DNA of 8,621 nt from IMG/VR virus record IMGVR_UViG_2645728091_000019; one strand, 5' to 3'. Position numbers and translations under genes: made by a program. Positions 1-8,621 of this stretch are shown here, one piece after another (within the stretch, counting starts at the first letter, position 1; each line of letters begins with the position of its first letter). This DNA comes from a virus. Lineage: Duplodnaviria; Heunggongvirae; Uroviricota; Caudoviricetes. The notes beneath the pieces are model-generated. The model was given only the letters and a program-made list of their open reading frames with translations. It had not been told where the DNA came from and made no database searches.

Positions 1-1004
<1,004 letters not shown>

Positions 1005-1079
1005 CTTGGGTTTAGCAGATTCGATTTCTTTAACGGATAGAGGTTTGGTTTGTCTTGCCATTGCCGGGTTTCCATAGTT

Positions 1080-1132
1080 TTAGGCACCTCAAAAACAATA
1101 AAGCTTTATGAGGTGCCTAACAAGGTGCCTAA
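1080..1132. repeat. 12-bp perfect inverted repeat TTAGGCACCTCA / TGAGGTGCCTAA with 17-bp AT-rich spacer, plus a third direct copy of AGGTGCCTAA
   Basis: Read directly: arms at 1080-1091 and 1109-1120, third copy at 1123-1132. No adjacent T-run on either strand, so it looks more like a protein-binding dyad than a terminator. Confidence 0.5.
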
Positions 1133-1186
1133 AAGGTTCGGATTTAATTAGTTGGCATCAGACTTCGCGGGACAAATTCAAGGCAC

Positions 1187-1229
1187 AAAAAAGCCCGCAG
1201 GGCTTGCGCCGTGCGGGCTTGCGCCGTGC
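1187..1229 (-). terminator. Intrinsic-terminator-like GC hairpin with U-run for leftward transcription; contains a 15-bp tandem duplication
   Basis: Minus strand reads ...GCCCGCA-N12-TGCGGGC followed by TTTTTT (complement of the A-run at 1187-1192). GGGCTTGCGCCGTGC is tandemly repeated at 1200-1214 and 1215-1229. Confidence 0.4.
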
Positions 1230-1440
1230 GGGCTCTTAGGACTTCATCGGATGACTCTGGTAATCACCGATGGAGAATTTTGGTGGGCTGGCGGAGTTTG
1301 AATAAATATTATATTGCTTTGATTTTTAACGATTTTGTTTAATTCAGTTTTTGTGCGTATACCTAATTGTATACCAATGGCTGTAAGTTAATGTGAAATT
1401 AAAGCGCATTTTTACTTGGATTGATGCTATATCGTACAGG

Positions 1441-1745
1441 AAAAAAATTTTTTTTCGAAAGAACTGTTCACACTGTTCACCTTTCTTTTTTCTCCTTTTA
1501 TTTCAGTATGATAGGTGGTGAATAATGGGTGAAGGGTGAACATTCGATTCTTCACCTCCGGCATTCTGCTGGTGTGACTCATACCGGTGATTAATCCCCC
1601 GTACTGAAAATCACACAGGGAGAAAAAAGTTTTTTTTGATTTGATTGTTCACACTGTTCACCTTTCGTTTTTCTCTTTTAATTTCAGTGTGATAACGGGT
1701 GAATATACGGTGAAGGGTGAACAGTAGATTGTTCACCTTCGGGGG
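1441..1745. repeat. crr-like cis replication region: two ~120-bp direct repeats 181 bp apart, each carrying TGTTCACC/GGTGAACA iterons
   Basis: TGTTCACA+TGTTCACC doublets at 1465-1481 and 1646-1662; inverted GGTGAAGG/GGTGAACA copies at 1528-1542 and 1709-1723; further TGTTCACC at 1730-1737. The octamer is the P4 alpha-binding type I iteron (from memory). Confidence 0.75.
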
Positions 1746-1755
1746 ATGTCGGGAT

Positions 1756-1780
1756 AAAAAAAGACCGGCAGATGCCGGTC
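1756..1780 (-). terminator. Rho-independent terminator just downstream of alpha
   Basis: Minus strand: GACCGGC-AUCU-GCCGGUC (7-bp perfect stem) followed by seven U (complement of the A-run at 1756-1762), 17 nt after the alpha stop codon at 1797-1799. Confidence 0.6.
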
Positions 1781-1796
1781 AGATGAGTCATGATGG

Positions 1797-3167
1797 TCAG
1801 GTTGTCGCAGGGTCGTCACATTTTGGCAGCCAGTCGCCGTAGCTTTCCTCTTTCAGTGTCAGGTTGGTCTGTATCCCCTGTTTGGTATGGCGCTTCTCGT
1901 AATTCAGTCCGTATTCCTTCAGCATCACCGGTAGCCCCAGCCCGAACATTTTCAGACTGAGTACATTCCGGTAGCCGTTTGCCTCCATGTAGGCCAGATA
2001 GGCGTGATAGAGGTATTTACGGTAATTACGCGGGATGATACTGGCGTTCCCCATATACATGCCGCTGGTCTGCGGCAGGGTTTCCAGATAGCCGATAAAA
2101 TCAAACGTCGGGTCGGCATCCCGTTTGATGTTCAGCGCCTCGTCTGAGTTCTGCTGGGACTGAAGCAGTGACCGGGCGAGCATCGGGTCGCTGAATTTCT
2201 GCATCAGGTGACGCACGATGACCGCCAGCTCGCGGGTGATTTTGTCCTTAAGCTGCGGGTCGCGCTCCTGCGGGGCTATCTGTTCCGGGAAGTGAATAAT
2301 CACCCGCCGGCGTGACACGCCGCCGCTGCGGTCGGTGAAGCGCATCGGGTTATTGTTCACGGCCAGAATCACCGCCGGGATGTGCGTGGAGTACGCATCC
2401 CGGTATTTCGGGTCAACGGACACCGCATCGCCGCCGGTGATGGCCTTGAGTCCGGCTCCGTCGCCGCTCCATTTTTCCTGGTCCGGCAGGCGTATCAGTG
2501 AGAAGCCAGTTAACGCGGCACGTTCACGCGGGGATTCCAGCGTCTCGATGGTGGCCGACGTGGCGTTATCCTCCCCGGCCAGCAGGGTGGCTATTTCGGC
2601 CATGATACTTTTGCCGCTGCCGCCGGGACCGGTCACCTCCAGAAAGAGCTGCCAGTCGTAGCGGTTTGCCAGCACCATAAACAGTGCGGCCAGAATCACG
2701 TCGCGTTTTTCCGCACGGCCACCGGCGGCACGGTCAAGCCAGCGCCAGAACGCGGGGGCGTGGGTTTCCAGCGTTTCCCCTTCCACCGGTGGGGTGAAAT
2801 CCACATCGCACAGGGTGCGCATCCAGTGTGACGGACTGTGCGGGTGGAACGTGCCGCTCTGCGTGTCGAGCACGCCGTTACGAAAGCCAATCAGGCGGCG
2901 GGAGGGGGCTTCCTGCTGCGGAATAATCAGCTTCAGGGTGTCCACCACGGAGGCCACCTTCCCGGAGGAGAACGGCGCGCGCAGACGCTGAAACAGCCCG
3001 GCCACATCCCGGGCAAAGTCCTGTGGCGGCAGCACCTTCCAGACACCATTTTCATAGCGGGACAGAAGCTGGCCGTTGGCATCGACCGCGAGCGCCTCGC
3101 CGTAATGCTCATAGATACGCATGGCCTTTTCGCTGGTACTCATGGCGGAAAACTCCGCTTCGCTCAT
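1797..3167 (-). CDS. alpha: P4 alpha-type helicase / origin-binding portion (C-terminal 456 codons of the alpha frame)
   Basis: Walker A VTGPGGSGKS encoded around 2607-2637. Same reading frame as ORF 3258-4130. No Shine-Dalgarno upstream of ATG 3167. Confidence 0.75.
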   Translation of the reverse strand: MSEAEFSAMSTSEKAMRIYEHYGEALAVDANGQLLSRYENGVWKVLPPQDFARDVAGLFQRLRAPFSSGKVASVVDTLKLIIPQQEAPSRRLIGFRNGVLDTQSGTFHPHSPSHWMRTLCDVDFTPPVEGETLETHAPAFWRWLDRAAGGRAEKRDVILAALFMVLANRYDWQLFLEVTGPGGSGKSIMAEIATLLAGEDNATSATIETLESPRERAALTGFSLIRLPDQEKWSGDGAGLKAITGGDAVSVDPKYRDAYSTHIPAVILAVNNNPMRFTDRSGGVSRRRVIIHFPEQIAPQERDPQLKDKITRELAVIVRHLMQKFSDPMLARSLLQSQQNSDEALNIKRDADPTFDFIGYLETLPQTSGMYMGNASIIPRNYRKYLYHAYLAYMEANGYRNVLSLKMFGLGLPVMLKEYGLNYEKRHTKQGIQTNLTLKEESYGDWLPKCDDPATT

Positions 3168-3257
3168 GGTATCGAACGGGCTTTCAGCCGGTGGCCGGAT
3201 GGCATCGTAAATGGCCTTACGGGTGGCTTCCCCGCCGTACTGCGTGAAGGCATCATT

Positions 3258-4130
3258 TCAGTCACCGAAGACCGGCGGCAGGGCAACAACACCTTCACAC
3301 GCATCTGCGGCTGCGGCGGCTTTTTTCTGGCCGTCACCGCTGAGGTCACGGTCTGCGGCAAGGACAATCTGACAGGCCGGATGCTTCTGCCGGGCAAGGC
3401 TGGCCAGAGAAAGGAGGTTCACGGAAGAAAGCGCCACCATCACCGTTTCACCGGTCAGGTGATGCACGGTAAGTGCGGTCGCGTATCCCTCCGCTATCCA
3501 CAGACGTTTTCCGGCCTGATTCTGTCCTTCAAGGATGTGACAGGTGCCCCTGACCTGTCCGCCTTTCAGGGTGCGCTTACGGCCGTCAGCACTGATTAAC
3601 TGAAGGTTAACCAGTTCGCCGCTGTCGTCATACAGTGGCACCACAAGGTCACCGGCACGCCAGCTCACGCCACCGGCTCTGTGTGTGCCGGTCAGCATCC
3701 GGCATTCCCGGCCGGGAAAGCCCTTGCGGGTCAGGTAGGCGTTACCGGTTCCGGGACGGGTTTTCGCCATCAGGGTTTGTGCCAGTGCGGCGGCGTTCTT
3801 CCGGGCGGCTTCTGTTTCAGCACCGGCGGCGGCCGTCACTGCCGGGTCAGCCGGGGGCAGGCTGCCGGTCACGGCAGCCACCTTTGCGGCCGCGTCGGAC
3901 GGGGAAACACCAAACACCTTTTCAACCAGTTTCAGGCCGTCACCGGCACCACACTGATTGCAGTACCAGGTGCCGCGCCCCTCCCTGTCATCAAAACGGA
4001 AGCGGTCACTCCCGCCACAGACCGGACAGGGCTGATGACGGTTTTTCAGCACCTGAATCCCCAGCGCCGGGAGAATACGCGGCCAGTGGCCGAGTGCATG
4101 GCTGACGGTGGCGGTTACGTTCATTTTCAT
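3258..4130 (-). CDS. alpha: P4 alpha-type primase portion (N-terminal 290 codons), ending at an in-frame TGA
   Basis: Zinc-binding CPVCGG...YCNQCG near the N-terminus; TOPRIM-like EGYATAL and AADRDLSGDG. Strong RBS AAGGAG 9 nt upstream of ATG 4130. The stop is TGA (plus-strand tca at 3258-3260). Confidence 0.75.
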   Translation of the reverse strand: MKMNVTATVSHALGHWPRILPALGIQVLKNRHQPCPVCGGSDRFRFDDREGRGTWYCNQCGAGDGLKLVEKVFGVSPSDAAAKVAAVTGSLPPADPAVTAAAGAETEAARKNAAALAQTLMAKTRPGTGNAYLTRKGFPGRECRMLTGTHRAGGVSWRAGDLVVPLYDDSGELVNLQLISADGRKRTLKGGQVRGTCHILEGQNQAGKRLWIAEGYATALTVHHLTGETVMVALSSVNLLSLASLARQKHPACQIVLAADRDLSGDGQKKAAAAADACEGVVALPPVFGD

Positions 4131-4144
4131 GGTGTTGTTCTCCT

Positions 4145-4465
4145 TCAGTGCAGTACCGGCGCTTTTATGTGACGGGCACAGAGTTCATCCATCACAACCA
4201 GCCCGAGAAAGGACAGCGACGGCGCGGCCTTCAGGGGGCCGGATTCCATTAAATCTTCCAGCAGGGCACAGGCTATCTGACGCCCTTTTTCCTCACCGTG
4301 CTGGCGCAGATAAAAGCCTTCCAGCTCAGCGGCGATGGCCGCCTCCAGTGACTCAAGGGTGAGATGCGGGTAGCGGTGCTGACGTTCGCACACGGTCAGC
4401 CAGGCACAGGCGACAGCGCGACGGTAAAGGGCAGCGCGTAAGACGGGCGGTAAGGGTGTTTTCAT
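4145..4465 (-). CDS. cnr: cnr-like (P4 orf106) copy-number regulator
   Basis: 106-aa ORF immediately upstream of alpha. GGAGG 7 nt before its ATG; its TGA stop (4145-4147) overlaps the alpha RBS. Position and length match P4 cnr (memory). Confidence 0.7.
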
Positions 4466-4600
4466 TTGCTTTCCTCCCTGTGACAGATGACTGCATTCCG
4501 TGCCGGTTGCATTAACTGATAAGGCATATCTGCGTCTCCTGAAGACGTGCGTATCCCTGCGCGAATACGCACATTTAATTTTTCGGGTGTCGTTTTTTAA

Positions 4601-5056
4601 TTACAGATAATTGCGGTAACTGTTATCCGGGGTGGTTTCCGGGTCAGGCTCCGTGCGGGGAATTTCCCGCCATTCCCGCGCTACCGGTGCTGCCCGGCTG
4701 ACCGGAACAGGGTCCTGCGGGTAAATATCCAGATATTTTTCCCGCCATTTCTGTAATTCCGGGTCTCCGGCCATTTCTTTCAGTACCGCATGCCGGTTTA
4801 CGGGGCTGCGTTTGAACAGGTCAGGACGGTCACAGGTAAATTCCCGCAGAAAACGCCCCAGCGGGATGTCTGTGGTGCGCCCGTCAGCGAGGATACGCAC
4901 AAGGATACTGAATTTACGGCGGTACGGATTCCAGACAATGTCCGGGCAGCGGTACGGCATTTCCCACGGAATACCGTCTTCCAGAATGCCGACCACGGCC
5001 ACATCGGGAAAACCGGCAGAACGGTAAATCTCACCGGGCTGGGGAAAATCAAACAT
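4601..5056 (-). CDS. P4 orf151-like protein of unknown function
   Basis: 151-aa ORF. Its start overlaps the stop of the upstream epsilon-like ORF (ATGTTTGA), indicating translational coupling within the leftward operon. Confidence 0.65.
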   Translation of the reverse strand: MFDFPQPGEIYRSAGFPDVAVVGILEDGIPWEMPYRCPDIVWNPYRRKFSILVRILADGRTTDIPLGRFLREFTCDRPDLFKRSPVNRHAVLKEMAGDPELQKWREKYLDIYPQDPVPVSRAAPVAREWREIPRTEPDPETTPDNSYRNYL

Positions 5057-5336
5057 GCGTCCTGTCTCCCCGGTCTTTCTGCTGGGCGAGAAAATCGCGG
5101 CACAGGCCTTTGGCTTTCAGCTCATTCAGCACAAAATCAATATCTTCATTCAGGTAGCTGAAAATATGCGGAATGTAGAGCTGATGCAGACCGGAGAGTT
5201 CACGGTGAATCAAATCACCCCCAACAAACCGGGATACGGCGCTGGCGCGGTTGAGCTTATGGTAAGCCTCAATGCTGAGGTGTTCACGGGCGTCATGACG
5301 TGCTGAGACGGTCTGAGGGGCTTTTTTATTACGCAC
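5049..5336 (-). CDS. epsilon: epsilon-like protein (P2-repressor antagonist in P4), 95 aa with GTG start
   Basis: The ORF track extends this frame to 5492, but the only start with a ribosome-binding site is GTG at 5334-5336 (GGAGG, 6-nt spacer). No SD precedes the in-frame ATGs at 5417 and 5381, and the upstream extension is Cys/Pro/Val-rich and atypical. Assignment is by position and length. Confidence 0.55.
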
Positions 5337-5526
5337 GGGACACCTCCACCACCGGCAGACGGGCAGCAAGGGAGAGCACATAGTCACGGACAAGGGAACG
5401 GCGGGCGCTGCGTTCATCACCGGCGACGGTGCGAAGCATACAGATACGAGGATGACGGTCTGCGCGACGGACAGCCGCAAACACAAAGACAAATTCAGGG
5501 TGTGAGGGGGTAAGGGTTGTAGCCAT
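5329..5526 (-). CDS. 65-aa first ORF of the leftward operon (position of P4 kil; identity unconfirmed)
   Basis: ATG at 5526 preceded by GGAGG with 8-nt spacer. Its stop overlaps the epsilon GTG start region. It is the 3' end of a spurious-looking 214-codon frame on the ORF track. Confidence 0.45.
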
Positions 5527-5556
5527 GATGGCAGCCTCCGTTAGATAGCAGGTTAC

Positions 5557-5852
5557 GCTATCGCCGGAGTTCTCACGCTCGATGGCGATAGCCCAGACGG
5601 GGGTGAGAATACCGGCTCTAACGGATACCGGCCAGCCCGGAGGCTGCCCCGCCTGAGCTACCATTGACTCTGCGGCATAATGAGCGGACGCGGGCAGGAT
5701 GCACGGAATGCCATCTGCACGACTGACCACACACCACACCATAATCTGGCGCTCTGTGGCGTTGATTGCGACACAAAAAAAGACGCATGGCGCGTCATAT
5801 GTCGCCGTTAGATTGCTCGGGTTCTCACGCCCGGCTGCCGATTTTGCGGCAG
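5557..5852 (-). promoter_or_regulatory. Untranslated immunity leader with seqA-like and seqC-like target blocks and an internal hairpin plus U7
   Basis: 10-mer GTTCTCACGC directly repeated at 5569-5578 and 5821-5830. The downstream copy sits in the loop of a 9-bp perfect hairpin (GCTATCGCC 5557-5565 / GGCGATAGC 5584-5592). A GACGC-GCCAU-GCGUC hairpin followed by U7 lies at 5775-5796 (minus strand). Confidence 0.5.
5590..5660 (-). ncRNA. Candidate CI-RNA-like immunity RNA (seqB-like block); boundaries approximate
   Basis: The leftward transcript carries ...GGUAUUCUCACCCCCGUCUGGGCUAUCGCC..., complementary to GCGUGAGAAC blocks upstream (5821-5830) and downstream (5569-5578). This matches the seqA/seqB/seqC logic of P4 immunity (memory). 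Ends cannot be mapped from sequence. Confidence 0.3.
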
Positions 5853-5853
5853 C

Positions 5854-5895
5854 GGAAAAACTATATCCGCAAATGCCGGAAAAAGGCAAGCCAGA
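5854..5895 (-). promoter_or_regulatory. Sigma70-type promoter for the leftward operon (PLE-like)
   Basis: Minus strand TTGCCT (complement of 5884-5889), 18-bp spacer, TATAGT (complement of 5860-5865). Predicted start near 5853, about 330 nt upstream of the first ORF. Confidence 0.45.
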
Positions 5896-5924
5896 AAAAG
5901 GGAGTTTTTGCAGAGCGGGCATCA

Positions 5925-6191
5925 TCATGCGTCGTACCCCCGTTTGCGTCCGGCAATGCGCCCGGCCATCCATGCAGTGACTTCAGAGTGCAGCCAGGCC
6001 ACATTTTTACCGCCAAGACTCACCTGCGGCGGAAATTCCCCCTTACGGATGAGTTCATAGATGGTCGAGCGTGACAGGCCGCACAGGTGCATCACTTCCG
6101 GCAGACGTAAAAAACGCTCCTGCGTGATGTCCGGCAGCGGCATCAGTGGCGTCACAGGGGCGGGAGACGGGGAAGAAAAAACAGCTTGCAT
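5925..6191 (-). CDS. vis: Vis-like AlpA-family small HTH regulator/excisionase (88 aa)
   Basis: 88-aa ORF with an AlpA/Xis-like HTH core ([27 protein letters not shown]). GAGG 8 nt upstream of the ATG. Lies downstream of a TGT-N12-ACA site, as expected for a late leftward promoter. Confidence 0.65.
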
Positions 6192-6293
6192 CGGGCTACC
6201 TCGTTAATGTCCATACAGCACCGGATAAGTCCGTCCGGCTTCGGGTAGCGCTTTATTTTGTGAATATTTTCAGCAGACGCAACAGGGGGGATT

Positions 6294-6311
6294 TGTTCCG
6301 GCAGCCTTACA
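6294..6311 (-). promoter_or_regulatory. TGT-N12-ACA dyad: Delta/Ogr-type late activator site for the leftward late promoter (PLL-like)
   Basis: TGT 6294-6296, 12 nt, ACA 6309-6311. Centre is ~110 bp upstream of the vis ATG, compatible with a -55 activator site and a ~55-nt leader. Confidence 0.5.
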
Positions 6312-6470
6312 ATTGCTGTGTGTTTTTTGCACATCAACGCCAGATAGCTTTAAAACGCTCTGGAAGGAGCTGGAAAAAATTATAGTGAAATACAAATTGT
6401 TTTTTTCTTATTTATTTCAGTTAATTAATAAAAATAAAAAGTAATAAACAGCACAAAAAGTCCATGAACG

Positions 6471-6575
6471 GGTGAACAGTGGTGAACAGACGGTGAACAG
6501 TCATTACTGCGATTGTTCACCATTTAATTTACTGTATTACTTATCTTTTTTATTAAGGTGAACAGAGGTGAACAG
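6471..6575. repeat. ori-like iteron cluster: five GGTGAACAG copies and one inverted TGTTCACC, flanked by very AT-rich DNA
   Basis: GGTGAACA at 6471, 6481, 6492, 6557 and 6567; TGTTCACC at 6514-6521; AT-rich tracts at 6360-6460 and 6522-6556. Same octamer as in crr, about 4.8 kb away. Confidence 0.7.
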
Positions 6576-6653
6576 TAAAATATAAAAAAACAAACAGTAA
6601 GCCGGTTTTTCCTGCGACCTTTTCCTGGCTTGCCGGTCTGAGGATGAGTCTCC

Positions 6654-6671
6654 TGTGTCAGGGCTGGCACA
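6654..6671 (+). promoter_or_regulatory. TGT-N12-ACA dyad: Delta/Ogr-type late activator site for the sid promoter (Psid-like)
   Basis: TGT 6654-6656, 12 nt, ACA 6669-6671. Centre is ~82 bp upstream of the sid ATG, giving a predicted start near 6717. Confidence 0.55.
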
Positions 6672-6743
6672 TCTGCAATGCGTCGTGTTGTTGTCCGGTG
6701 TACGTCACAATTTTCTTAACCTGAAGTGACGAGGAGCCGGAAA

Positions 6744-7478
6744 ATGTCTGACAACACCATCCCTGAATATCTGCAACCCGCGCTGGCACAACTGGAAAAG
6801 GCCAGAGCCGCCCATCTTGAGAACGCCCGCCTGATGGATGAGACCGTCACGGCCATTGAACGGGCAGAGCAGGAAAAAAATGCGCTGGCGCAGGCCGACG
6901 GAAACGACGCTGACGACTGGCGCACGGCCTTTCGTGCAGCCGGTGGTGTCCTGAGCGACGAGCTGAAACAGCGCCACATTGAGCGCGTGGCACGCCGGGA
7001 GCTGGTACAGGAATATGACAATCTGGCCGTGGTGCTGAATTTTGAACGCGAACGCCTGAAAGGGGCGTGTGACAGCACGGCCACCGCCTACCGGAAGGCA
7101 CATCATCACCTTCTGAGTCTGTATGCAGAGCATGAGCTGGAACACGCCCTGAATGAAACCTGTGAGGCGCTTGTCCGGGCAATGCATCTGAGCATTCTGG
7201 TACAGGAAAATCCGCTCGCCAACACCACCGGCCATCAGGGCTACGTCGCACCGGAAAAGGCTGTCATGCAGCAGGTGAAATCATCGCTGGAACAGAAAAT
7301 TAAACAGATGCAAATCAGCCTCACCGGCGAGCCGGTTCTCCGGCTGACCGGGCTGTCAGCGGCAACACTCCCGCACATGGATTATGAGGTGGCAGGCACA
7401 CCGGCACAGCGCAAGGTGTGGCAGGACAAAATAGACCAGCAGGGTGCAGAGCTTAAGGCCAGAGGACTGCTGTCATGA
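6744..7478 (+). CDS. sid: Sid-like capsid size-determination (external scaffold) protein, 244 aa
   Basis: ATG at 6744 with GAGGAG 7 nt upstream; the ORF-track start at 6726 is an upstream GTG with no RBS. Coiled-coil-like, charge-rich sequence. Its stop overlaps the delta start (ATGA). Length matches P4 Sid (memory). Confidence 0.8.
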   Translation: MSDNTIPEYLQPALAQLEKARAAHLENARLMDETVTAIERAEQEKNALAQADGNDADDWRTAFRAAGGVLSDELKQRHIERVARRELVQEYDNLAVVLNFERERLKGACDSTATAYRKAHHHLLSLYAEHELEHALNETCEALVRAMHLSILVQENPLANTTGHQGYVAPEKAVMQQVKSSLEQKIKQMQISLTGEPVLRLTGLSAATLPHMDYEVAGTPAQRKVWQDKIDQQGAELKARGLLS

Positions 7479-7975
7479 TTTACTGCCCGTCGTGTGGACA
7501 TGTTGCTCACACTCGTCGCGCACATTTCATGGACGATGGCACCAAGATAATGATTGCACAGTGCCGGAATATTTATTGCTCTGCGACATTTGAAGCGAGT
7601 GAAAGCTTTTTCTCTGACAGTAAAGATTCAGGAATGGAATACATTTCAGGCAAACAGAGATACCGCGATTCACTGACGTCAGCCTCCGGCAGTATGAAAC
7701 GCCCGAAAAGAATGCTTGTTACCGGATATTGTTGTCGGAGATGTAAAGGCCTTGCACTGTCAAGAACATCGCGGCGTCTGTCTCAGGAAGTCACCGAGCG
7801 TTTTTATGTGTGCACGGATCCGGGCTGTGGTCTGGTGTTTAAAACGCTTCAGACCATCACCCGCTTCATTGTCCGCCCGGTCACGCCGGACGAACTGGCA
7901 GAACGCCTGCATGAAAAACAGGAACTGCCGCCAGTACGGTTAAAAACACAATCATATTCGCTGCGTCTGGAATGA
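7475..7975 (+). CDS. delta: Delta-like late transcriptional activator (tandem Ogr-type zinc-finger protein), 166 aa
   Basis: Two Ogr-like Cys4 modules (CPSCGH...CRNIYC and CCRRC...CTDPGC). Translationally coupled to sid. Length matches P4 Delta (memory). Confidence 0.8.
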   Translation: MIYCPSCGHVAHTRRAHFMDDGTKIMIAQCRNIYCSATFEASESFFSDSKDSGMEYISGKQRYRDSLTSASGSMKRPKRMLVTGYCCRRCKGLALSRTSRRLSQEVTERFYVCTDPGCGLVFKTLQTITRFIVRPVTPDELAERLHEKQELPPVRLKTQSYSLRLE

Positions 7976-8048
7976 GGGCTGCCGGTTAACCCCGGCCGTC
8001 GCCGCACACCGTATTTTTATTCTTCAGCATGATGAGAAAGAGATAACG

Positions 8049-8621
8049 ATGGAGAGCACAGCCTTACAGCAGGCCTTTGACACCTGTCAGAATAACAAAG
8101 CAGCATGGCTGCAACGCAAAAATGAGCTGGCTGCGGCCGAACAGGAATATCTGCGGCTTCTGTCCGGGGAAGGCAGAAACGTCAGTCGCCTGGACGAATT
8201 ACGCAATATTATCGAAGTCAGAAAATGGCAGGTGAATCAGGCCGCCGGTCGTTATATTCGTTCGCATGAAGCCGTTCAGCACATCAGCATCCGCGACCGG
8301 CTGAATGATTTTATGCAGCAGCACGGCACAGCACTGGCGGCGGCACTGGCACCGGAGCTGATGGGATACAGTGAGCTGACGGCCATTGCCCGAAACTGTG
8401 CCATACAGCGTGCCACAGATGCCCTGCGTGAAGCCCTTCTGTCCTGGCTTGCGAAGGGGGAAAAAATTAATTATTCCGCACAGGATAGTGACATTTTAAC
8501 GACCATCGGATTCAGGCCTGACGCGGCTTCGGTGGATGACAGCCGTGAAAAATTCACCCCTGCGCAGAACATGATTTTTTCGCGTAAAAGTGCGCAACTG
8601 GAATCACATCAGTCTGTGTAA
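8049..8621 (+). CDS. psu: Psu-like polarity-suppression / capsid decoration protein, 190 aa
   Basis: 190-aa ORF last in the sid-delta operon, ending with TAA at the final three bases of the window. Length and position match P4 Psu (memory). Confidence 0.8.
   Translation: MESTALQQAFDTCQNNKAAWLQRKNELAAAEQEYLRLLSGEGRNVSRLDELRNIIEVRKWQVNQAAGRYIRSHEAVQHISIRDRLNDFMQQHGTALAAALAPELMGYSELTAIARNCAIQRATDALREALLSWLAKGEKINYSAQDSDILTTIGFRPDAASVDDSREKFTPAQNMIFSRKSAQLESHQSV

What the first reader, a model, noticed from the sequence alone, without database searches (positions are those of the whole stretch)
8049..8621. Window ends exactly at the psu stop, just before the P4-family accessory hotspot
In P4-type satellites the segment downstream of psu, between psu and the integrase, is a known variable cargo site that often carries anti-phage defence genes. 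The window stops at the last base of psu, so any such cargo is not visible here.
Basis: established knowledge. Interest (0 to 1): 0.5.

Follow-up and report, generated by a model that had tools for sequence, protein, structure and literature searches.

The report
P4 satellite psu; Metis defence lies beyond
The window does end on the last base of the psu gene of a P4-type phage satellite, and public contigs identical to the window show that the hidden slot beyond it holds an already described anti-phage system (type I Metis, misA-misB), so the finding is correct but ordinary.

Summary
ORF 8049-8621 (+) is psu: 190 aa, Pfam Psu E=1e-88, 187/190 identical to P4 Psu. Its TAA is the last three bases of the window. 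Window 1442-8621 is collinear with phage P4 (97.7%).

Two NCBI draft contigs (L012, L015) are 100% identical to all 8621 bases, and a metagenome scaffold (L009) is identical over 8250. All continue the same way:
- a 163-nt spacer, then the 19-nt cos core, with P4 homology ending 7 nt after it;
- a convergent integrase, an att repeat and ssrA.

The first 399 nt of each cassette gene match the published 'Metis 401675' construct with no mismatch, and every residue mutated in that study is at the same position. Rousset et al. 2022 already list a contig of this lineage (NKPB01000060) as 'Metallophos + HAD' in the P4 hotspot, and they cloned a near-identical cassette (pFR96).

The slot is variable. 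2,251 of 5,426 complete E. coli genomes share the ~189 nt after psu, but only 3 share the cargo.

Verdict: already known, low interest.

The parts
8049..8621 (+). psu (polarity suppression / capsid decoration protein), 190 aa. Its TAA stop is the last three bases of the window.
   Evidence: Pfam Psu E=1.1e-88; 187/190 identical to P4 Psu.
7475..7975 (+). delta (Ogr/Delta zinc-finger late activator), 166 aa
   Evidence: PF04606, E=5.7e-22; collinear with P4 delta.
6744..7478 (+). sid (capsid size determination), 244 aa. The mechanical ORF list starts it at GTG 6726.
   Evidence: Gene call at L009 6373-7107, plus 371; P4 sid 9583-10317; annotated 'capsid size-determining scaffold Sid' in relatives.
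5925..6191 (-). AlpA-family regulator (P4 ORF88), 88 aa
   Evidence: PF05930, E=7.3e-21.
5329..5928 (-). Ash-family / Icd-like protein in the P4 cI region, 199 aa as called
   Evidence: PF10554, E=4.9e-27; gene calls; annotation.
5049..5336 (-). epsilon (derepression protein), 95 aa
   Evidence: PF25738 Derepression; L009 4678-4965, plus 371; P4 epsilon.
4601..5056 (-). P4 ORF151 homologue
4145..4465 (-). P4 ORF106 homologue (DUF5375)
   Evidence: PF17345, E=2.9e-63.
1797..4130 (-). alpha primase-helicase, same length as P4 alpha (777 codons) but interrupted by an in-frame nonsense codon, W291* (TGG to TGA at 3258-3260). This splits it into a 290-aa primase part and a 448/456-aa helicase part.
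   Evidence: (codon-by-codon comparison with P4 alpha).
1442..1742 (.). crr, the cis replication region: two 120-nt direct repeats (1442-1561 and 1623-1742)
   Evidence: family D1 at L009 1071-1190 and 1252-1371, plus 371; P4 crr annotation at 4291-4590.
1181..1235 (.). att-like repeat (probable attR). Its first 40 nt (1181-1220) are 93% identical to a copy between int and ssrA, 11.5 kb away beyond the window end.
   Evidence: (family D2).
1..1005 (+). Right end of IS100 (3' end of istA, then istB). istB (156-938) carries a nonsense codon, Q36*. The IS sits outside the satellite, just beyond the att-like repeat.

Best explanation
The finding region is the intact psu gene of a P4-type satellite prophage of about 11.5 kb integrated next to ssrA. 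The window was simply cut at the psu stop codon. From contigs identical to the window, the continuation in L009 coordinates is listed below (add 371 for window-equivalent positions).

- A conserved 163-nt spacer with a strong hairpin.
- The 19-nt cos core at 8414-8432. Homology to P4 ends 7 nt after it.
- misA at 8518-10131: 537 aa, an N-terminal PUA-like sensor fused to a calcineurin-like metallophosphatase.
- misB at 10134-10973: 279 aa, a HAD phosphatase.
- A convergent tyrosine integrase at 11001-12194 (-).
- An att repeat at 12305-12344 and the ssrA tmRNA gene at 12379-12741 (-).

The cargo is type I Metis, also published as PUA-Cal-HAD and related to DS-9. Its mechanism comes from the literature and was not tested here. 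Lytic phages degrade the Dam-methylated host chromosome, releasing N6-methyl-dAMP. The PUA-like pocket of MisA binds this nucleotide and switches on the phosphatase domain. That domain depletes an essential nucleotide pool and aborts the infection. MisB either removes basal m6dAMP to keep MisA silent, or acts as the first step of a dNTP-degrading cascade.

Shown here: gene identities, order, boundaries, conserved catalytic and sensor residues, and sequence identity to the tested allele over the published prefixes. Inferred: that the window's own source record continues in the same way, and that the cassette is active in its native context.
For: Psu identity and window end. P4 collinearity.

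Continuation: L012 and L015 are 100% identical to window 1-8621, and L009 is 100% identical to 372-8621. L013, L014 and L016 are at least 99.8% identical. L009, L012, L013, L014 and L015 have identical or near-identical sequence after psu as far as each contig reaches; L016 extends only 184 nt past psu.

cos and hotspot boundary: cos lies 164-182 nt after psu and P4 homology stops at +189/190. 2,251 of 5,426 complete E. coli genomes share that first ~189 nt, but only 3 share the cargo.

Cargo domains:
- Pfam Pua-like 1.4e-38 plus Metallophos 1.7e-13; HAD_2 3.6e-15.
- NCBIfam 'DS9_1_antiphage, anti-phage phosphoesterase' 2.3e-119.
- PADLOC 'Hydrolase' 4.7e-64 for the HAD protein.

Identity to the validated system: the first 399 nt of misA and of misB each show 0 mismatches to the 'Metis 401675' constructs. 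MisA R9, W39, D251, N288, H289 and H467 and MisB D8 and D10 are at identical positions. The PUA motifs VWWGWWxKxxExxP and TPxYY are present.

Prior record: Rousset Table S1A lists NZ_NKPB01000060 (which is L013) as Metallophos + HAD. Their clone pFR96 has 0 mismatches over 399 nt and 1 difference over 399 aa.

Mechanism from the literature.

Element ends: att repeat and tmRNA.
Against: - The source record itself was not identified. No record in the E. coli complete-genome, phage or plasmid collections is identical to the window.
- The hotspot is swap-prone by nature. The closest complete genome with the same IS100 junction (98.1%) carries an unrelated 293-aa gene in the slot. One contig with a residue-identical Psu carries type II Metis instead.
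- Only the first 399 nt of each published 401675 gene could be compared.
- The NCBIfam DS9_1 score (399.4 bits) is below its curated cutoff of 420. The ECOR28 residue numbering is offset by 1-5 residues, so those two validated systems are homologues and not the same allele.
- The near-identical pFR96 clone is listed among 'additional tested systems' and not among the validated ones.
- The two mechanistic papers disagree on the depleted metabolite (NAD+ or dNTPs) and on whether the HAD protein is needed for defence.
Confidence: 0.88

Rival explanations
1. The window's own source genome carries a different, possibly uncharacterised, cargo after cos, because the hotspot was exchanged by recombination even though the 8.6 kb shown is identical to the Metis-carrying contigs.
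For: The hotspot turns over quickly. A 98.1% relative with the same IS100 junction has a 293-aa unannotated gene there. A contig encoding the identical Psu protein has a Hydrolase + TM (type II Metis) cassette in the opposite orientation. Only 3 of 5,426 complete genomes share the cargo, against 2,251 that share the post-psu spacer.
Against: All five contigs that are at least 99.8% identical to the window and reach the cargo (L009, L012, L013, L014, L015) continue with the same sequence, with no exception. L016 reaches only 184 nt past psu and matches over that stretch. They share the lineage markers alpha W291* and the IS100 junction.
Confidence: 0.06
2. The element is a decaying, immobile remnant and the cargo is a non-functional fossil. 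On this view the slot is historical and not an active defence locus.
For: alpha carries a nonsense codon, W291*. An IS100, itself with a nonsense codon in istB, abuts the element just outside the att-like repeat. The near-identical cassette cloned with its native upstream sequence (pFR96) was not among the validated defence systems.
Against: misA and misB are full-length ORFs with all sensor and catalytic residues intact and match the active 401675 allele over the comparable parts. psu, delta, sid, alpA, epsilon and int are intact, and both att repeats and cos are present. The ECOR28 homologue defends from its native promoters. Loss of mobility would not by itself inactivate the cassette.
Confidence: 0.05

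Closest known systems
Satellite phage P4 (X51522 / NC_001609)
   Same: Window 1442-8621 is collinear with P4 4291-11460 at 97.7%: crr, alpha, ORF106, ORF151, epsilon, the cI/ash region, ORF88/alpA, sid, delta, psu. Psu is 187/190 identical. The psu-cos spacer and the cos core are conserved in the continuation.
   Different: P4 carries gop-beta-cII after cos; this lineage carries misA-misB. The integrase is 397 aa next to ssrA, against 440 aa in P4. P4 integrates at leuX (my own knowledge, not tested). alpha has W291*.
P4 psu-int defence hotspot (Rousset et al. 2022, PMC9122126)
   Same: The position is the same: immediately after cos, between psu and int. The conserved-to-variable switch is sharp. 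A contig of this very lineage (NZ_NKPB01000060) is in their Table S1A as 'Metallophos + HAD'.
   Different: Nothing structural. In that study the cassette (pFR96 from E. coli HVH3) was tested but is not listed among the validated systems.
Type I Metis, MisA-MisB (Osterman et al., bioRxiv 10.1101/2025.11.05.686725), allele 'E. coli 401675'
   Same: The two-gene operon and domain architecture are the same. The published first 399 nt of both genes show 0 mismatches, and all mutated functional residues are at identical positions.
   Different: Full-length identity could not be checked. The paper does not mention the P4-satellite context: the words 'satellite', 'prophage' and 'hotspot' do not occur in it.
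PUA-Cal-HAD of E. coli ECOR28 (Zhang et al., bioRxiv 10.64898/2026.01.15.699771) and DS-9 (DefensePredictor, PMC13092281)
   Same: The architecture is the same: a PUA-like + Calcineurin-CE protein plus a HAD protein. The PUA motifs II and V, the metal-binding D/H residues and HAD motifs I-IV are conserved.
   Different: These are different alleles. Residue numbering is shifted by 1-5 positions relative to ECOR28. The NCBIfam DS9_1 score of 399 bits is below the equivalog cutoff of 420. The proposed chemistry also differs from the Metis paper: a dNTP to dNDP to dNMP cascade in a filament, against an NAD+ diphosphatase.
Type II Metis / 'Hydrolase + TM' (Rst_Hydrolase-TM)
   Same: It occupies the same slot in a satellite with a residue-identical Psu (L004). 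Its HAD protein belongs to the same PADLOC 'Hydrolase' family as MisB here.
   Different: The partner is a 210-aa membrane protein (MisC) and not the PUA-phosphatase MisA, and the cassette is in the opposite orientation.

Membership tests
Psu (PF07455) of P4-type satellites | Full-length match to the Psu profile and to P4 Psu | tested here: met
   E=1.1e-88 covering profile positions 1-181 of 182; 187/190 identical to P4 Psu, no gaps.
[quoted passage not shown] | [quoted passage not shown] | tested here: met
   Alpha is present but carries W291*.
P4-like satellite | Integrase and cos present | tested here: met
   Neither is in the window. In contigs identical to the window, cos is at L009 8414-8432 and a 397-aa tyrosine integrase at 11001-12194.
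P4 psu-int defence hotspot | A variable gene cassette immediately after cos, between psu and int, with conserved flanks | tested here: met
   P4 homology ends 7 nt after the cos core. 2,251 genomes share the flank but only 3 share the cargo. Three different cargos were seen among close relatives.
Type I Metis (MisA-MisB) | MisA: an N-terminal PUA-like domain fused to a calcineurin-like metallophosphatase | tested here: met
   PF24405 at residues 6-171 (1.4e-38) and PF00149 at 206-468 (1.7e-13) in the 537-aa protein.
Type I Metis (MisA-MisB) | An adjacent, co-oriented HAD phosphatase MisB with the catalytic aspartates | tested here: met
   A 279-aa HAD_2/Hydrolase protein starts 2 nt after the misA stop. 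D8 and D10 are present.
Type I Metis (MisA-MisB) | m6dAMP-pocket and catalytic residues shown by mutagenesis to be needed for defence | tested here: met
   R9, W39, D251, N288, H289 and H467 are at the same positions as in Metis 401675. Motifs VWWGWWAKADEQCP and TPPYY are present.
Type I Metis (MisA-MisB) | Dam-dependent, abortive anti-phage activity triggered by m6dAMP | not testable with these tools
   Known only from the literature, for an allele identical over the published 399-nt prefixes.
DS-9A equivalog (NCBIfam NF053862) | Score at or above the curated cutoff of 420 bits | tested here: not met
   399.4 bits. It is a clear homologue over the whole profile (positions 1-479 of 486), but not the same equivalog by NCBI's criterion.

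The most novel reading that the evidence does not exclude
In its native setting the misA-misB cassette might be expressed mainly as a read-through extension of the P4 late operon (sid-delta-psu). It is co-oriented with psu and separated from it only by the 267-nt cos spacer. Defence would then be switched on by helper-phage/Delta activation and helped by Psu's inhibition of Rho. That would explain why the clone pFR96, which starts 27 nt upstream of cos and lacks the late promoter, was not validated in Rousset's screen, while the arabinose-driven identical allele defends strongly. The evidence does not exclude this, but it leans against it. A 13-bp hairpin followed by a U-rich tract lies just after psu. 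Hotspot systems occur in either orientation. The ECOR28 homologue works from its own promoters.
Probability: 0.08. Interest if true: 0.4.

Novelty: already known. Interest (0 to 1): 0.15.

Why it matters
The result adds little. It confirms that a reader working from sequence alone correctly recognised a P4-type satellite and the position of its defence hotspot, and it shows that the hidden slot holds type I Metis. Two small points are useful. First, the reference Metis allele ('E. coli 401675') sits in a P4-satellite hotspot next to ssrA, a context the Metis and PUA-Cal-HAD papers do not mention. Second, type I and type II Metis occupy the same slot in satellites with identical Psu proteins, which illustrates cassette exchange at this site.

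Tried and rejected
- **Plasmid origin.** P4 can replicate as a plasmid, but no plasmid record covers more than the IS100 part, apart from chromosome-sized records in PLSDB.
- **Exact source in the complete E. coli genomes.** The best full-length match is 98.1%, so the source is not in that collection.
- **Naming the source strain from the assembly accessions.** A paper search for JHTG/JHSF and GCA_001266375/GCA_001265845 found nothing. I could therefore not show that L012 or L015 is strain 401675.
- **Solved structures.** Sequence searches of the PDB copy with both cargo proteins gave no hit at E<=1e-3, so the ECOR28 cryo-EM chains could not be used for a direct comparison.
- **ECOR28 residue numbers applied literally.** Most positions 'failed'. 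This was a register offset between alleles and not a loss of residues; the motifs are present and the 401675 numbering fits exactly.
- **Consensus promoter/terminator scan of the psu-to-int interval.** Counts were no higher than in shuffled sequence, and no promoter-like site was found between cos and misA. It was uninformative.
- **Structure prediction, large protein-database searches and collection scans.** Not used, because exact-sequence look-ups and the literature settled the question.

Full report
**1. The observation**

The ORF at 8049-8621 (+) starts with ATG and ends with TAA at 8619-8621, the last three bases of the 8621-base window. Its 190-aa product matches Pfam Psu (PF07455) over the whole profile (E=1.1e-88). 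It is 187/190 identical to P4 Psu without gaps. Window 1442-8621 aligns as one block with phage P4 (X51522) positions 4291-11460 at 97.7% identity, and 11460 is the last base of P4 psu. That the window ends on a stop codon reflects how the window was cut.

**2. What the window is**

From right to left the window carries the P4 gene set:
- psu (8049-8621), delta (7475-7975) and sid (6744-7478);
- the AlpA-family regulator (5925-6191, -), an Ash-family/Icd-like gene (5329-5928, -) and epsilon (5049-5336, -);
- ORF151 (4601-5056, -), ORF106/DUF5375 (4145-4465, -) and alpha (1797-4130, -);
- the two 120-nt crr repeats (1442-1742).

alpha has the same length as in P4 but carries one in-frame nonsense codon, W291* (TGG to TGA at 3258-3260). 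Left of crr there is a 40-nt repeat (1181-1220) whose partner lies between int and ssrA 11.5 kb away. It is probably an att site. Positions 1-1005 are the right end of IS100, and its istB carries a nonsense codon, Q36*.

**3. Finding the continuation**

No record in the phage, plasmid or complete E. coli genome collections is identical to the window; the best full-length match is 98.1%. Exact-sequence look-ups were more useful.

- The Psu protein is on many contigs.
- The lineage-specific 290-aa primase fragment created by W291* is on a smaller set.
- Two NCBI draft contigs, JHTG01000057.1 (L012) and JHSF01000101.1 (L015), are 100.000% identical to window 1-8621.
- A metagenome scaffold (L009) is identical over 372-8621, that is 8250 of 8250 bases.
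- L013, L014 and L016 are at least 99.8% identical.
- L009, L012, L013, L014 and L015 have the same sequence after psu as far as each contig reaches. L016 extends only 184 nt beyond psu.

I use L009 coordinates below; window-equivalent position = L009 position + 371.

**4. What lies beyond 8621**

- The 163 nt after the psu stop match P4 11461-11624 (one indel, three substitutions). They contain a 13-bp hairpin followed by a U-rich stretch.
- The 19-nt P2/P4 cos core GGCGAGGCGGGGAAAGCAC is at L009 8414-8432, which corresponds to base 1 of the linear P4 record.
- Similarity to P4 stops 7 nt later, at +189/190.

This is the sharp conserved-to-variable switch next to cos that Rousset et al. describe. 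It is visible at population scale too. 2,251 of 5,426 complete E. coli genomes share the first ~189 nt after psu, but only 3 share what follows.

What follows is:
- a 537-aa gene (8518-10131, +);
- a 279-aa gene (10134-10973, +);
- a convergent 397-aa tyrosine integrase (11001-12194, -);
- the att repeat (12305-12344);
- the ssrA tmRNA gene (12379-12741, -), then smpB.

From att repeat to att repeat the element is about 11.5 kb, the size of P4.

**5. Identity of the cargo**

The 537-aa protein has a Pua-like domain (PF24405, 1.4e-38) fused to a calcineurin-like phosphoesterase (PF00149, 1.7e-13). The 279-aa protein is a HAD phosphatase. NCBIfam gives 'DS9_1_antiphage, anti-phage phosphoesterase' at 2.3e-119, with 399 bits, just under the 420-bit cutoff. 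PADLOC assigns the HAD protein to the 'Hydrolase' family of the Hydrolase-TM system (4.7e-64).

Three papers describe this architecture as a defence system:
- DS-9;
- PUA-Cal-HAD of ECOR28;
- type I Metis, MisA-MisB.

The Metis supplement prints the start of the synthesized genes. The first 399 nt of 'Metis 401675' misA and the first 399 nt of its misB each match L009 with 0 mismatches. All residues mutated in that allele are at the same positions: MisA R9, W39, D251, N288, H289, H467 and MisB D8, D10. The PUA motifs named in the ECOR28 paper are present, while ECOR28 numbering is offset by 1-5 residues, so that system is a homologue and not the same allele.

**6. Already on record in this context**

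Rousset et al. 2022, Table S1A, list NZ_NKPB01000060, which is my locus L013 from the window's lineage, with 'Metallophos/Metallophos_2 + HAD_2/...' between psu and int. They also cloned the cassette from E. coli HVH3 (pFR96, 'Phosphoesterase + HAD'). Its printed DNA prefix has 0 mismatches to L009 from position 8387, and its protein prefix has one difference, N231 against D231. pFR96 is in Table S2B, 'additional tested systems', and not in S2A, 'validated'. The Metis and PUA-Cal-HAD papers do not mention satellites or hotspots.

**7. How it most likely works (from the literature, not tested here)**

Phages that degrade the host chromosome release N6-methyl-dAMP from Dam-methylated DNA. The PUA-like domain of MisA binds it and activates the metallophosphatase. 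The infected cell is starved of an essential nucleotide pool and the infection aborts.

The two studies differ on the chemistry:
- Osterman et al. find an NAD+ diphosphatase, with MisB as a safety phosphatase that removes basal m6dAMP and is dispensable for defence.
- Zhang et al. find a filament in which HAD converts dNTP to dNDP and the calcineurin domain converts dNDP to dNMP, with HAD required.

The allele here matches 401675 over the comparable parts, so the in vivo results of the first study apply most directly.

**8. Variability of the slot among close relatives**

A contig encoding a residue-identical Psu (L004) carries, in the opposite orientation, a 288-aa HAD protein plus a 210-aa protein. 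These match PADLOC Hydrolase and Hydrolase-TM at 6e-198 and 7.5e-141, which is Rousset's HAD + TM system, now called type II Metis. The closest complete genome with the same IS100 junction (NZ_CP148334.1, 98.1%) has a single 293-aa gene with no hit in Pfam, NCBIfam or PADLOC. This is why inferring the cargo from relatedness needs the 100%-identical contigs, and why I leave about 6% for a different cargo in the actual source.

**9. Verdict**

The only correction is that cos lies before the cargo. The content of the slot is a known, experimentally characterised system in a known hotspot, and this contig lineage is already tabulated in the 2022 paper. Novelty: already known. Interest: low.

Noticed in passing
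window 3258-3260 (- strand), within alpha 1797-4130: The alpha primase-helicase carries a single in-frame nonsense codon, W291* (TGG to TGA). It separates the zinc-ribbon/Toprim primase part (290 aa) from the D5-type helicase part. The exact 290-aa fragment is listed in 33 blocks of the public collection, so this is an established lineage and not a sequencing error.
   Followed up: partly
window 156-938 (+), codon 36 of istB: IS100 istB has a nonsense codon (Q36*) compared with the intact copy in NZ_CP148334.1. The gene caller splits it into 34-aa and 220-aa pieces, so this IS100 copy may no longer transpose on its own.
   Followed up: partly
L009 12379-12741 (-) and L012 1019-1381 (+): the ssrA gene flanking the element, outside the window: The window's lineage has a rare ssrA allele encoding the degradation tag ANDESFALAA in place of the usual E. 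coli ANDENYALAA. Two substitutions are in the tag codons and two are elsewhere. Only 2 of 5,426 complete E. coli genomes carry this exact allele.
   Followed up: partly
L001 24033-24914 (+) (NZ_CP148334.1, same hotspot slot): The closest complete-genome relative with the same IS100 junction carries a single 293-aa gene (WP_024225804) in the hotspot. It has no hit in Pfam, NCBIfam or PADLOC. Rousset's Table S1A lists it as 'hypothetical' cargo. It is an uncharacterised candidate in a defence slot.
   Followed up: partly
L004 10847-12347 (-): A satellite whose Psu is residue-identical to the window's carries type II Metis (HAD + 210-aa membrane protein) in the same slot and in the opposite orientation. 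Type I and type II Metis therefore exchange at this site on near-identical backbones.
   Followed up: partly
window 1006-1441: The IS100 end abuts sequence that in other E. coli (L007, L010) continues into a truncated 145-aa integrase gene of a neighbouring island. This suggests tandem islands at ssrA, with IS100 inserted into the neighbour's integrase.
   Followed up: no
L009 8283-8313 (window-equivalent 8654-8684): A perfect 13-bp hairpin followed by UUUGCAUGCGUUUU lies 32 nt after the psu stop. The 190-nt psu-cos spacer folds much more stably than shuffled sequence (z = -5.2). It may be the terminator of the late operon, or part of the structured cos region.
   Followed up: partly
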